From Promethearchaeota archaeon (GTDB lineage: Archaea; Asgardarchaeota; Thorarchaeia; Thorarchaeales; Thorarchaeaceae): a stretch of 64,000 nt of DNA. Of this stretch, positions 31,448-34,193 are shown piece by piece. Position 1 is the stretch's first letter; each line of letters starts with the position of its first letter. The notes beneath the pieces are model-generated. The model was not told the origin of the DNA and made no database searches. It saw nothing but the letters and a program-made list of their open reading frames with translations. Both the position numbers and the translations under genes were made by a program. The DNA lies in the NCBI GenBank assembly GCA_014728035.1, contig WJMJ01000079.1, positions 1-64,000 of the forward strand, in the 5' to 3' direction.

Positions 31448-32551
31448 TCAGAGTTTTCTCTTTCCCAATAGGAATTCTTCAACCCATCTCTCTGCACGGT
31501 ACATTGTAGTGGGTGTTGGAGGCATTTTGAATCCGTAAGCTGATATCGATTCTAATGCACCTCCTATCCCTCTTTTTAGGGCTAGTTTAGTTCCACGAAT
31601 GGCATCCATGAGGATTGGTCCAGCGTTAGGACCATCAGTGACCTCCATTCGAATATCAATTTTTATTGGCGCTCCACCAAATTGTCTTCCATGAATGTAG
31701 AAATACGAATCTCTTGCATTGTCCATGAACGGTACAAAGTCAGATGATCCTGCTACCAGTGGTGCATCATAAGGAAGATCCTGGCTTATCGCCCCACTCT
31801 TTACACCCCTTTTTCTCATTCGCCCTCGATAATGTGAGTCCAGCGATTCTGCTCCACCTCCAACATCCAACTGGTAACTTTTGTCAACTTTTACCCCGCG
31901 TGCAACTAGTAACTGCAGAATATTTCTGTGAAGAACAGTTGATCCAAGTTGGTCCTGAATATCATCTCCGACCAATGGGATTCCTTTTTCTTCAAATTTC
32001 TTTGCCCATTCTGGGTCAGAAGCAATTCTAATTGGCACTCCATTTATGAAAGCTATACCTGCATCAAGACATGCTTGTGCATAGAATTTTGTTGCTTCCT
32101 CTGCAGAACCTGGAAGAAGACAAATTCCCATTTCTGCACCAGAATCTTTCAGAATTTTACCTACATCCTCCTCAGATTCTTTTGAGACCTTAGCTAAGAC
32201 CTGAAGCTTCTCATCAACTCCATCTTTGATTGGACCCTTTGAAACCTTCAATCCCATCTTTCCAATTTTTGCAAAACGCATTACATTGTTGGGGTCTGCA
32301 AAGATTGCTTCAGATAAATCTACTCCAACTTTGCCTTCAACAACGTCAAAGGCAGCAACGAACTTGATATCTTCAACATGATATCCTGCAAAATCTGGGT
32401 GATTAAGTCCTATACTGTCGTCTCCCGCTCGTGTGTTCTTATAGTATTCCACTCCCTGGATGAGAGCGCTAGCGCAATTTCCTATACCAAATAATGCTAC
32501 CTTTATTCCGTTCAATTGTATAACCTCTTTTATGATAGAGGAATCTAACAA
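31448..32551 (-). CDS. ino1: Myo-inositol-1-phosphate synthase
   Basis: GIGNCASALIQG, FVAAFDV, FINGVP, GDDIQDQLGST and DGPNAG. The real start is probably a TTG ~12 codons further in. Confidence 0.9.
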   Translation of the reverse strand: MLDSSIIKEVIQLNGIKVALFGIGNCASALIQGVEYYKNTRAGDDSIGLNHPDFAGYHVEDIKFVAAFDVVEGKVGVDLSEAIFADPNNVMRFAKIGKMGLKVSKGPIKDGVDEKLQVLAKVSKESEEDVGKILKDSGAEMGICLLPGSAEEATKFYAQACLDAGIAFINGVPIRIASDPEWAKKFEEKGIPLVGDDIQDQLGSTVLHRNILQLLVARGVKVDKSYQLDVGGGAESLDSHYRGRMRKRGVKSGAISQDLPYDAPLVAGSSDFVPFMDNARDSYFYIHGRQFGGAPIKIDIRMEVTDGPNAGPILMDAIRGTKLALKRGIGGALESISAYGFKMPPTPTTMYRAERWVEEFLLGKRKL

Positions 32552-32713
32552 ATTGACGATGGCACATCTTTTAAAGTTTTATGACCATAGAATAGTCGAG
32601 TTATCAAGTAATCTCCAATTACACCGTCAACTGTAGAATTCTTGTATGAGCTAATATCATTGAATATGTTGTACTGGTTAATTGATATTTTTAGCTAATT
32701 GATTGTGGATAGC

Positions 32714-32727
32714 TAACACTTATAGAG
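32714..32727 (+). promoter_or_regulatory. Archaeal BRE/TATA element for the downstream RNA
   Basis: TTATAGAG at 32720-32727 begins 29 nt before the first paired base of the structured element. Confidence 0.55.
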
Positions 32728-32748
32728 ATATGATTCCATACTATACAT

Positions 32749-32963
32749 GGACGCACGGATGATCCCGTTGCTCTTCATATCGTTCAATGAATGATATGAC
32801 CGATTTGCAGAAGTCTATGTGAATGTCCTGGATGGAGATTTACCTCTCACCTGATGGTTCAGAGAAGGATGGCAGCAAGTTGGTAACGAGCCTTTACGTT
32901 CATAATGAGGGTGGACCTCAAGTCCATAAATGGACTACCAAGTTTGTGGGATTGCCTGCGTCC
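32749..32963 (+). ncRNA. Unclassified structured non-coding RNA (~215 nt)
   Basis: Terminal stem GGACGCA/TGCGTCC, several nested helices, an upstream TATA box and a downstream TCTTTTT, in an interval with no long ORF. Confidence 0.7.
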
Positions 32964-33032
32964 TCTTTTTGTTGAAATGCAATTTCTAAAAAATGATATA
33001 TGATGCACCGAAAATACAGTGCATCGTTTCTT

Positions 33033-34193
33033 CTATTCTAGACTCTTGGCTAAAAGGTCAACCACATCGACAACACCAATGCTGCTTTCGGCCATCTTCT
33101 TCCCAGAAAGTAGGTTATTTTCACAAAAAGGACAAGCTGTCGCAATGATGGATGCACCAGTGTCTTCTGCTGAACGTATTCTATCCGCACCTATTTTTTT
33201 CGAGAGTTCTGAATCGTATGAACGTAGGCCTCCACCTGCTCCACAGCAAATAGCAGTTTCACGAATTGTGTCCATCTCAACAAGCTCAACGCCAGGTATA
33301 GCTTTGAGAACTTCTCTTGGACTATCATAAACACCAAGTTCTCTACCCATGTGACACGGGTCGTGATATGTAACTGTCACATTCTCAATCTCTTTTGGTT
33401 GCAATTTCCCTGTTTTGATTAATTCTTCTGCGTATTCCAAAATATGCAAGGTTTCAGGGAGTTCAATATCAAATCGTTCCGGGTAATCTTTGCGAAGCGT
33501 TTTCAAACACCCTGCACAGGAAACAATGATTTTTTCAGCTCCTGATTCTTTAATTGATTGTTCTACTTTCTCTGCGTTTCTCTTTGCTTCATCAACTTTT
33601 CCAGTTCTGATCATAACCGAGCCACAACAAGGTTCATCCTCTAGTATTGCAAAATCTACGTTACTAGCTTTAAGGATGGTAGCTGTATGTCTAGCTGCTG
33701 CTGGCAAGCGCATTCCTGCTGTACAACCGACGTAATAGAGAATCTTTCCAGTTTTAGGAACACTAAATCCTAATTCTTCAATCCATCTTCTTTTTTCTGA
33801 ATTATCCTCAGAATATGGATTATCATTAATGAGGATTTTTTCAGTTAGGCTATCACGGATTTCGTTTGGGATGTCACTTAGCACCTGTCTGACCTGTTCT
33901 AGACTCTCAGCAGGATTGAATTCAGCAGCACAAATCTGAGTGCAGTTCCCACAAAGTGTGCATTGAAACAATGATTCCGCATTTTCAGGAGTCTTATCAA
34001 GCTCACCATTCAATAGAGCAAGGGCCACCTGAATTTTGCCACGCATAAAACTGGTTTCAAATCCGCTGGAATTCTTCCAAACCGGACAAATACCATCAAA
34101 TCCTTTAGCCTCATACACTGCATTTCTGCAAATACCACATCTTCTGCATTGCAAAAGTTCTTCCTTAAGATATTCTAGGTCTATCTCAGTCAT
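33033..34193 (-). CDS. Fe-S oxidoreductase (GlcF/HdrD-like, CCG domains)
   Basis: CRRCGIC, CTLCGNCTQIC, CCG, YHDPCH, CCGAGGG and ACPFC. Confidence 0.92.
   Translation of the reverse strand: MTEIDLEYLKEELLQCRRCGICRNAVYEAKGFDGICPVWKNSSGFETSFMRGKIQVALALLNGELDKTPENAESLFQCTLCGNCTQICAAEFNPAESLEQVRQVLSDIPNEIRDSLTEKILINDNPYSEDNSEKRRWIEELGFSVPKTGKILYYVGCTAGMRLPAAARHTATILKASNVDFAILEDEPCCGSVMIRTGKVDEAKRNAEKVEQSIKESGAEKIIVSCAGCLKTLRKDYPERFDIELPETLHILEYAEELIKTGKLQPKEIENVTVTYHDPCHMGRELGVYDSPREVLKAIPGVELVEMDTIRETAICCGAGGGLRSYDSELSKKIGADRIRSAEDTGASIIATACPFCENNLLSGKKMAESSIGVVDVVDLLAKSLE

What the first reader, a model, noticed from the sequence alone, without database searches (positions are those of the whole stretch)
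32714..32970. Unannotated ~215-nt multi-junction structured RNA with its own promoter and terminator
Seen: fully nested pairings in an ORF-free gap. The outer stems are GGACGCA 32749-55 / TGCGTCC 32957-63 and ATCCC 32762-66 / GGGAT 32948-52. Domain 1 is closed by TTGCT 32768-72 / AGCAA 32874-78 and contains an 11-bp hairpin (32775-99), a small hairpin (32802-15) and TGTCCT/AGGATG. Domain 2 is closed by TTGGTA 32880-85 / TACCAA 32936-41 and contains hairpins TGAGG/CCTCA (32906-20), GTCCA/TGGAC (32922-35) and a short ACG/CGT stem. TTATA starts 29 nt upstream and TCTTTTT follows immediately. I could not find RNase P (GAGGAAAGUCC), SRP helix-8 or tRNA T-loop signatures. Inference: an independently transcribed ncRNA of an unrecognised class.
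Basis: partly seen in the sequence, partly recalled or inferred. Interest (0 to 1): 0.8.

Follow-up and report, generated by a model that had tools for sequence, protein, structure and literature searches.

The report
New structured RNA gene in Thorarchaeota
The gene-free gap holds a real, separately transcribed gene for a ~218-base, intricately folded non-coding RNA that matches no catalogued RNA family, is kept as one copy in nearly all genera of one family of Thor-type Asgard archaea, and has no known function.

Summary
Confirmed as a real ncRNA gene on the + strand, window 32749 to about 32966-32970.

- Fold: MFE -87.2 kcal/mol, z = -6.0 on the + strand and -1.9 on the - strand.
- Known families: no Rfam 15 family matches it or ten homologues. 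The genome's RNase P RNA and SRP RNA lie elsewhere.
- Distribution: covariance models find one full-length copy in 24 of 26 sampled genomes of the same family (Thorarchaeota by record titles), in 15 of its 16 genera overall. None was found in about 125 genomes of 26 other Asgard families.
- Covariation: on a structure-blind MAFFT alignment, 48 of 67 pairs change on both sides. The score is 0.350, against 0.181 for shuffles (0/500 reach it) and 0.08-0.10 for slid controls.
- Gene signals: every homologue has a TATA-like cTTAT box about 30 nt upstream and a T-rich tail.
The two domain-closing helices and two inner stems are replaced by covarying alternatives.

The function is unknown. My best guess is a protein-binding scaffold RNA. 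The scan flagged the same family earlier in two other genomes (e1-5448346, e1-5549868).

The parts
32714..32727 (+). Archaeal promoter: TATA-like box CTTATAGAG (32719-27) with an A-rich stretch before it. A second AT-rich element lies near -10.
   Evidence: A (a/g)cTTAT(g/a) or cTTAAT box starts 29-32 nt before the 5' GGAC in all 13 homologues printed and all 29. It is nearly identical between G000 and G001.
32749..32966 (+). The ncRNA itself (about 218 nt; 215-250 nt in homologues).
   Evidence: cmsearch R2 scores 160 bits over 32749-32966. The fold z-score is -6.0. There is one copy in the genome.
32749..32766 (+). 5' strands of the closing stem: P1 (32749-55), GG (32757-58) and P2 (32761-66).
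   Evidence: In helix 1, 15 of 16 pairs change on both sides. GGACG/CGUCC becomes GGGCG/CGCCC in genus g8.
32948..32963 (+). 3' strands of P2 (32948-53), CC (32955-56) and P1 (32957-63).
   Evidence: Same evidence as the 5' strands.
32770..32773 (+). 5' strand (GCUC) of the long-range helix that closes domain 1.
   Evidence: GCUCC/GGAGC pairs in 89.6% of cells in helix 2. The independent MFE folds of most homologues choose it. Enforcing it in G000 costs only 2 kcal/mol.
32888..32891 (+). 3' strand (GAGC) of the domain-1 closing helix.
32776..32798 (+). P3, a variable hairpin.
   Evidence: All 7 pairs change on both sides in helix 3. Its length and sequence differ in every genus.
32799..32816 (+). 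5' strands of P4a (32799-808) and P4b (32813-16).
   Evidence: In helices 4 and 5, all 9 pairs change on both sides.
32867..32884 (+). 3' strands of P4b (32867-70) and P4a (32875-84).
32819..32843 (+). P5 hairpin, GAAU-G-UCC / GGA-G-AUUC, with a conserved G.G mismatch and a variable loop.
   Evidence: This is the most conserved block: GAAU and UU are invariant. Cells are 96.7% paired in helix 6.
32844..32864 (+). P6 hairpin, CUCUC-ACC...GGU-UCA-GAGAG, with a 3-nt bulge.
   Evidence: GUUCAG is invariant. The stem covaries (CUUCC/GGAAG and CUCCU/GGGAG). It is missing in both genomes of genus g2.
32895..32913 (+). P7: UAC-G-UUC / GAG-G-GUG around an A-rich loop.
   Evidence: Cells are 90% paired in helix 9, with one-sided changes only. 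Genera with an ACCAC or CCCCU insert use another register.
32914..32944 (+). P9 (GAC 32914-16 / GUU 32942-44) enclosing hairpin P8 (32922-35).
   Evidence: P9 is GAC/GUC in most homologues, UGU/ACA in G031/G007, CGU/GCG in G013 and CCUCA/UGAGG in genus g8 (read). P8 covaries (helix 14).
32964..32970 (+). T-rich termination tract (TCTTTTT).
   Evidence: A T- or pyrimidine-rich tail follows the stem in all homologues.

Best explanation
Window 32749-32966(+) is a stand-alone gene for a stable, highly structured non-coding RNA. It belongs to a previously uncatalogued family restricted to one family of Thorarchaeota (Asgard archaea).

Shown:
- It has its own archaeal TATA promoter placed so that transcription starts at the first base of the closing stem, and a T-rich terminator right after the stem's 3' strand.
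- It folds into a P1-P2 closing stem that opens into a four-way junction.
- Domain 1 is closed by GCUC/GAGC. It holds a variable hairpin and a long stem tipped by a three-way junction with the two most conserved hairpins, P5 and P6.
- Domain 2 holds P7, and P9 enclosing P8.
- It is single-copy and kept in 15 of 16 genera.

Inferred mechanism: the invariant nucleotides sit in helices, mismatches (two conserved G.G) and junctions, while the loops are free to vary. The RNA therefore most likely works through its three-dimensional shape, as the RNA core or scaffold of a lineage-specific ribonucleoprotein that binds one or more proteins. It is unlikely to work by base-pairing with targets or by acting in cis on a neighbouring mRNA. 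One weak candidate partner is an Ssb-like OB-fold protein with an RGG tail, encoded just downstream on the same strand in several genera.
For: Fold and strand:
- + strand z -6.0 against -1.9 for the - strand.
- z from -2.3 to -8.6 in 13 homologues.
- 173 G.U cells against 55 A.C cells in paired columns.

Not a known family:
- No Rfam 15 hit for the window, for the region at E<=10, or for 10 homologues.
- RNase P RNA (159.7 bits) and SRP RNA (89.5 bits) lie on other contigs.
- No tRNA was found.

Conservation:
- One full-length hit in 24/26 family genomes and none in about 125 genomes of 26 other families of the phylum.
- With model R3 and lax filters it is also present in genera g9, g15 and g2, and absent in 4 g10 genomes and in 21 genomes of 17 other families.
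- A motif scan of 185,579 species genomes hit almost only Thorarchaeota records.
- 24 full-length copies were found in metagenome contigs.

Covariation.

Promoter and terminator are conserved in position.

Non-coding: 230 of 297 pairwise indels are not multiples of three.

Loops vary while helices and junction nucleotides are invariant.

An Ssb-like OB gene (PF21473) lies 170-260 nt downstream on the same strand in genera g2, g5, g11 and part of g6.
Against: - No transcript evidence could be obtained; no sequencing run was listed.
- No protein partner is shown.
- The Ssb-like family has 1-6 paralogues per genome, occurs also in genus g10 (which lacks the RNA), and is not adjacent in G000. The adjacency may be inherited synteny only.
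- P6, one of the two most conserved hairpins, is absent from genus g2, so not all of the conserved core is essential.
- A ligand-binding or catalytic role would give the same conservation pattern.
- Related sequences can inflate covariation statistics. The slid-partner control argues against this but is not an R-scape test.
Confidence: 0.7

Rival explanations
1. It is a trans-acting sensor or catalytic RNA: a free-standing aptamer for a metabolite or ion, or a ribozyme. The conserved junctions would form a binding pocket or active site, not a protein platform.
For: It has a multi-junction architecture with invariant junction and mismatch nucleotides, and possible alternative pairings. CACC in the P6 loop and CAC in P7 both complement GGUG, and two registers exist for P7. 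Its size and complexity are in the range of large riboswitches and small ribozymes.
Against: No riboswitch or ribozyme family in Rfam matches. It is not in front of a gene on its strand in G000, and it ends in its own terminator. No conserved pseudoknot could be shown, because the candidate partners never vary.
Confidence: 0.12
2. It is, or originally was, a cis-acting leader or autoregulatory binding site for the Ssb-like OB-fold gene that follows it on the same strand in several genera.
For: The order RNA then Ssb-like gene, on the same strand with a 170-260 nt gap, occurs in genera g2, g5, g11 and part of g6, and at 1.25 kb in g9.
Against: In G000 and at least eight other genera the next gene is convergent (CCG protein on the - strand), yet the RNA is just as conserved. 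The T-rich terminator follows the stem also where the Ssb-like gene is downstream. The gap is long enough for the gene's own promoter.
Confidence: 0.07
3. It is a very divergent member of a known RNA class: an RNase P/MRP-like, SRP-like, tRNA-like, Y-RNA-like or box C/D RNA.
For: The paired 5' and 3' ends with a short NCC tail recall stable RNAs such as tRNA, Y RNA and RNase P RNA. GUUCA motifs recall T-loops.
Against: The canonical RNase P and SRP RNAs are present elsewhere. ARAGORN finds nothing. There is no TROVE/Ro60 protein. I read no C/D boxes or G.A tandem (K-turn) from the sequences. UUC of the GUUCA motif in P7 is base-paired in most homologues. There are no Rfam hits.
Confidence: 0.04
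4. The signal belongs to the - strand (a 3' UTR or SECIS-like element of the convergent CCG Fe-S gene), or to a small ORF, or to a repeat or mobile element.
For: The CCG gene ends 70 nt away on the - strand. A 50-codon ORF overlaps (32823-32975).
Against: The - strand folds no better than expected (z -1.9). G.U outnumbers A.C 173:55 in paired columns. The promoter is on the + strand. The CCG gene has its own hairpin plus T-run at 33025-33002. Indels break any frame. It is single-copy with conserved synteny. No confirmed match was found in viral contigs.
Confidence: 0.03

Closest known systems
Orphan large structured ncRNAs of prokaryotes (raiA motif RNA, OLE RNA; the Hgc RNAs of Methanocaldococcus). 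This comparison is from my own knowledge.
   Same: It is a stand-alone gene with its own promoter and terminator, about 200-250 nt long. It has a multi-junction fold with strong covariation, a lineage-restricted but near-universal distribution within that lineage, and no known function.
   Different: There is no sequence or structure match to any of them in Rfam 15. It is archaeal (Asgard), single-copy and limited to one family. Its helix order (four-way junction plus a nested three-way junction) is its own.
Archaeal RNase P RNA (RF00373) and SRP RNA (RF01857)
   Same: These are stable housekeeping RNAs whose 5' and 3' ends pair. They are single-copy, protein-binding and multi-domain.
   Different: Both are present elsewhere in this genome. 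The universal RNase P CR-I/CR-IV/CR-V and SRP helix-8 motifs are absent, and the models do not score.
Y RNA / bacterial YrlA (Ro60-bound RNAs with a terminal stem)
   Same: It has a long terminal stem made by the two ends, a U-rich 3' tail and an internal structured module.
   Different: No TROVE/Ro60 gene was found in the genome. There is no tRNA-like module, and the RNA is roughly twice as long (Y RNA length from my own knowledge).

Membership tests
Archaeal RNase P RNA (RF00373) | Scores with the family covariance model and is the genome's only such RNA. | tested here: not met
   There is no hit in the window. The genome's RNase P RNA is at C151:41695-42028, 159.7 bits.
Archaeal SRP RNA (RF01857) | Scores with the family model, including the helix 5/6/8 S-domain motifs. 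| tested here: not met
   There is no hit in the window. The SRP RNA is at C25:14422-14731, 89.5 bits, E 1.6e-20.
tRNA / tRNA-like RNA | Cloverleaf with a T-arm (G53-T54-Psi55-C56-R57-A58) next to the 3' acceptor strand. | tested here: not met
   ARAGORN finds none in the window. The sequence before the 3' strand of P1 has no T-arm. UUC of the GUUCA motif is paired in P7.
Y RNA / YrlA | Co-occurrence with a Ro60 (TROVE) protein. | tested here: not met
   PF05731 has no match in G000 (97.9% complete). The control search finds it in Deinococcus and Bacteroides.
Box C/D or H/ACA sRNA | C (RUGAUGA) and D (CUGA) boxes forming a K-turn at the terminal stem, or an ACA/ANA box after a hairpin. | tested here: not met
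   There are no conserved boxes in the alignments. The internal loops of P1/P2 differ in every genus. No snoRNA model scores.
Riboswitch / cis-regulatory leader | Lies in the 5' UTR of a gene on the same strand, with an expression platform. | tested here: not met
   In G000 the next gene is convergent, and the RNA ends in its own T-run. A same-strand downstream gene exists in only some genera.
Repeat / mobile-element RNA (omega RNA, bridge RNA, MITE) | Multi-copy, or attached to a transposase or recombinase gene. | tested here: not met
   There is one copy per genome in a conserved syntenic slot. No confirmed match was found in viral contigs.
Stand-alone structured ncRNA gene (generic) | Own promoter and terminator, a conserved fold with compensatory changes, and no coding frame. 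| tested here: met
   Transcription itself was not testable.

The most novel reading that the evidence does not exclude
The RNA is the catalytic or substrate-recognising core of a ribonucleoprotein unique to Thorarchaeaceae. One example would be a shape-reading RNA that docks onto another folded RNA, as RNase P or T-box stem I do through stacked T-loop-like modules; the twin CAC..GUUCA..GAG modules in P6 and P7 would be the candidates. That would make it a new functional RNA class in the archaeal lineage closest to eukaryotes.
Probability: 0.1. Interest if true: 0.85.

Novelty: categorically new. Interest (0 to 1): 0.62.

Why it matters
Very few large, independently transcribed structured RNAs are known in archaea beyond rRNA, tRNA, RNase P and SRP RNA, and none has been characterised in Thorarchaeota. 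An RNA of this complexity, with about 67 covarying pairs and two nested multi-helix junctions, is kept as a single copy through a whole family. That almost certainly marks an unrecognised cellular function, probably an RNP. It gives a concrete handle (sequence, structure model, covariance model) for pull-downs, structure work and metatranscriptome mining in Asgard archaea. It also warns that Asgard intergenic gaps hold undiscovered RNA genes. Against this, the family is narrow and the function is unknown, so its wider weight is still open.

Tried and rejected
- Rfam gave nothing: gathering threshold on the whole window, E<=10 on the region, and E<=1 on ten homologous loci. The exceptions are an unrelated CsrB-like hairpin at 33002-25 and a spurious HCV hit inside a neighbouring gene.
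- Sequencing runs: none was listed for window 32600-33100, so no RNA holder is listed and read laying could not be used.
- Ro60/TROVE protein: not found.
- Genus g10 and the sister family f2: no RNA with R2 or R3, even with filters off next to their MIPS-like gene, and there is no gene-free gap there.
- Viral contigs: one pattern hit, not confirmed by the model.
- Two bacterial pattern hits and five metagenome pattern hits were chance.
- Literature: four full-text searches found no description of this RNA.
- A naive all-against-all column covariation scan was too noisy to use.
- Pseudoknot CACC (P6 loop) with GGUG: it cannot be tested because both sides are invariant.
- Resemblances I noticed and rejected because they are not conserved across homologues: the U6 ACAGAGA box, an Sm site, a T-arm, a K-turn and the sarcin-ricin loop. 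These readings are my own.
One metagenome contig carries two identical inverted copies at its two ends, probably an assembly artefact.

Full report
**What is in the sequence**

Window 32552-33032 is a 480-nt gap between two minus-strand genes.
- The left gene is a myo-inositol-1-phosphate-synthase-like gene (31448-32551).
- The right gene encodes a CCG/4Fe-4S HdrD/GlcF-like protein (33033-34193), followed by an FAD-linked oxidase.

Folded as RNA, 32745-32970 gives -87.2 kcal/mol on the + strand: z = -6.0, with none of 200 dinucleotide shuffles as good. The minus strand gives -61.2 kcal/mol, z = -1.9.

**It is not a known RNA**

- cmscan against the 4227 families of Rfam 15 finds nothing in the window at gathering score.
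- It finds nothing in the RNA at E<=10.
- It finds nothing in ten diverse homologous loci.
- ARAGORN finds no tRNA or tmRNA.
- The genome's RNase P RNA (C151, 159.7 bits) and SRP RNA (C25, 89.5 bits, E 1.6e-20) lie on other contigs.
- No Ro60/TROVE protein is encoded.

**Who has it**

Record titles of the nearest relatives of the neighbouring gene name the organism as Thorarchaeota, an Asgard lineage.
- BLASTN found a full-length 89%-identical copy in the sister species, and fragments in other genera.
- Model R1, built from two sequences, found full-length single hits in 31 of 61 family genomes.
- Model R2 was built from a 27-sequence MAFFT alignment. It found exactly one full-length copy in 24 of 26 sampled genomes of the family and none in about 125 genomes of 26 other families of the phylum.
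- Model R3, built from the most divergent members and run with lax filters, added genera g9, g15 and g2. It still found nothing in four genomes of genus g10, in the sister family f2, or in 20 genomes of 16 further Asgard families.
- The RNA is therefore present in 15 of the 16 genera of this family. It was not found in g10, where there is also no gene-free gap next to the syntenic gene.
- A 23-position motif scan of 185,579 species genomes returned 32 stretches. Thirty are archaeal records: most are titled Thorarchaeota, the rest uncultured archaeon or Promethearchaeota, plus one titled Hermodarchaeota. Seven of these, including the Hermodarchaeota one (188 bits), were scanned with R2 and all matched. 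The other two are bacterial chance hits that the model rejects.
- The same scan of metagenome contigs gave 24 full-length copies at 119-187 bits. Five pattern hits there, and the single hit in viral contigs, were not matched by the model.
- The RNA is single-copy in G000.

**Gene signals**

In every homologue a TATA-like box, (a/g)cTTAT(g/a) or cTTAAT, starts 29-32 nt before the 5' GGAC, and a second AT-rich element lies near -10. Transcription should therefore begin at or within two bases of the first pair of the closing stem. A T- or pyrimidine-rich tract follows the last pair.

The strand call is independent of the promoter. In paired columns, G.U/U.G cells outnumber A.C/C.A cells 173 to 55. 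Twelve of 13 homologues fold with z of -3.3 or lower on this strand (range -2.3 to -8.6), and in all but G003 and G014 the other strand scores worse.

It is not coding: 230 of 297 pairwise indels are not multiples of three.

**Structure**

Independent MFE folds of 14 divergent homologues give the same layout. RNAalifold on the structure-blind MAFFT alignment gives it too.
- P1-P2 form a closing stem of about 15 bp with variable defects.
- A long-range helix GCUCC/GGAGC closes domain 1.
- Inside domain 1 lie a variable hairpin (P3) and a long stem (P4a, P4b).
- That stem ends in a three-way junction carrying P5 and P6.
  - P5 is GAAU-G-UCC/GGA-G-AUUC, with a conserved G.G mismatch and a free loop.
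  - P6 is CUCUC-ACC...GGU-UCA-GAGAG.
- Domain 2 has P7 (CAC-G-UUC/GAG-G-GUG). Genera with an ACCAC or CCCCU insert use another register, CCACUC/GGGUGG or CCCCU/AGGGG.
- A short helix P9 encloses hairpin P8.
- P9 is GAC/GUC in most genomes, UGU/ACA in G031/G007, CGU/GCG in G013 and CCUCA/UGAGG in genus g8.

Counts on the MAFFT alignment:

| Measure | Value |
|---|---|
| Cells paired | 85.8% |
| Pairs changed on both sides | 48 of 67 |
| Covariation score | 0.350 |
| Score of shuffles | 0.181 +/- 0.008 (0 of 500 reach the observed score) |
| Score with 3' partners slid by 1-3 columns | 0.076-0.101 |

A model-fitted alignment of 31 sequences gives 0.408 against 0.153.

Threading the consensus onto G000 costs 5 kcal/mol relative to its MFE. 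Enforcing only GCUC/GAGC costs 2 kcal/mol.

Both genomes of genus g2 lack P6.

- Confirmed: the outer stems, the 5' hairpin, the last hairpin, the promoter and the terminator.
- Replaced by the pairings above: the closures TTGCT/AGCAA and TTGGTA/TACCAA, the small hairpin 32802-15, and TGTCCT/AGGATG.
- The TGAGG/CCTCA hairpin competes with P7 plus P9, which fit the divergent genera better.

**Context**

The order CpXC gene - MIPS-like(-) - RNA(+) - [0-1 gene] - CCG(-) - FAD oxidase(-) is kept through the family. Synteny therefore says little about function.

In genera g2, g5, g11 and part of g6, and loosely in g9, the extra gene lies 170-260 nt downstream on the RNA's strand. It encodes an Ssb-like OB-fold protein (PF21473) with an RGG-rich tail.

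That family has 1-6 paralogues per genome. G000 carries three copies elsewhere, and genus g10 has them too. I treat it only as a weak candidate partner.

**How it most likely works**

Shown: it is a stand-alone gene with a conserved complex fold and variable loops, and its invariant residues lie in helices, mismatches and junctions.

Inferred: it acts through its shape, most likely as the RNA core of a lineage-specific RNP. A ligand-sensing or catalytic role is the main rival. Antisense action is unlikely because no conserved single-stranded stretch exists apart from junctions.

No transcript data could be obtained: no run was listed.

**Novelty**

There is no match in Rfam 15, and four full-text literature searches turned up no description.

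The scan's own notes show the same family flagged in two other genomes. Note e1-5448346 shares 22 of 67 short words with this stretch. Note e1-5549868 describes the same helix order. Both are first-reader notes without follow-up.

I class it as a new RNA family or class whose function is unknown.

Noticed in passing
window 33002-33025 (hairpin GATGCACC...GGTGCATC); on the - strand it is followed by a T6 run near 32985-32990: A hairpin plus T-run reads as the terminator of the convergent CCG/FAD-oxidase operon on the - strand. The two convergent transcription units therefore end about 30 nt apart. Rfam's weak CsrB hit (E 7.2) is just this hairpin.
   Followed up: partly
L151:1914-2396 (+), L169:1969-2469 (+); G000 paralogues at C20:8251-8697, C4:8909-9370, C121:76236-76685: This is a family of short Ssb-like OB-fold proteins (PF21473) with Arg/Gly-rich (RGG-like) C-terminal tails. 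It is present in 1-6 copies per Thorarchaeaceae genome, and one copy sits just downstream of the RNA gene in several genera. RGG tails are typical of eukaryotic RNA-binding proteins.
   Followed up: partly
window 31448-32551 (-): The left neighbour scores only on the C-terminal Inos-1-P_synth domain (E 1.7e-16) and falls below cut-off on the NAD-binding domain. G010, G024 and G033 hold a second copy at about 42% identity. An earlier first-reader note (e1-5421688) claims rewritten catalytic motifs in this orthologue group. I did not check that claim.
   Followed up: no
metagenome contig Ga0153915_10000040 (L244:2718-2954 - and L250:4744-4980 +): Two copies of the RNA with identical scores lie in opposite orientation near the two ends of one 121.5-kb contig. 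This is probably a fold-back assembly artefact and not a true duplication.
   Followed up: no
L190 (JBHLLF010000002.1, titled Candidatus Hermodarchaeota archaeon DZ1M.409), 232-459 +: A full-length copy (188 bits) sits in a record labelled Hermodarchaeota. Either the MAG is mislabelled or contaminated, or the RNA reaches outside Thorarchaeota. I did not examine the neighbouring genes.
   Followed up: no
P5 loop, e.g. G019/G006/G032/G080 homologues (loop GUCUGCAG / AUCUGCAG): In several genera the P5 loop contains the palindrome CUGCAG, which could allow loop-loop self-association. It is not conserved (G000 has UGGAU), so I did not build on it.
   Followed up: no
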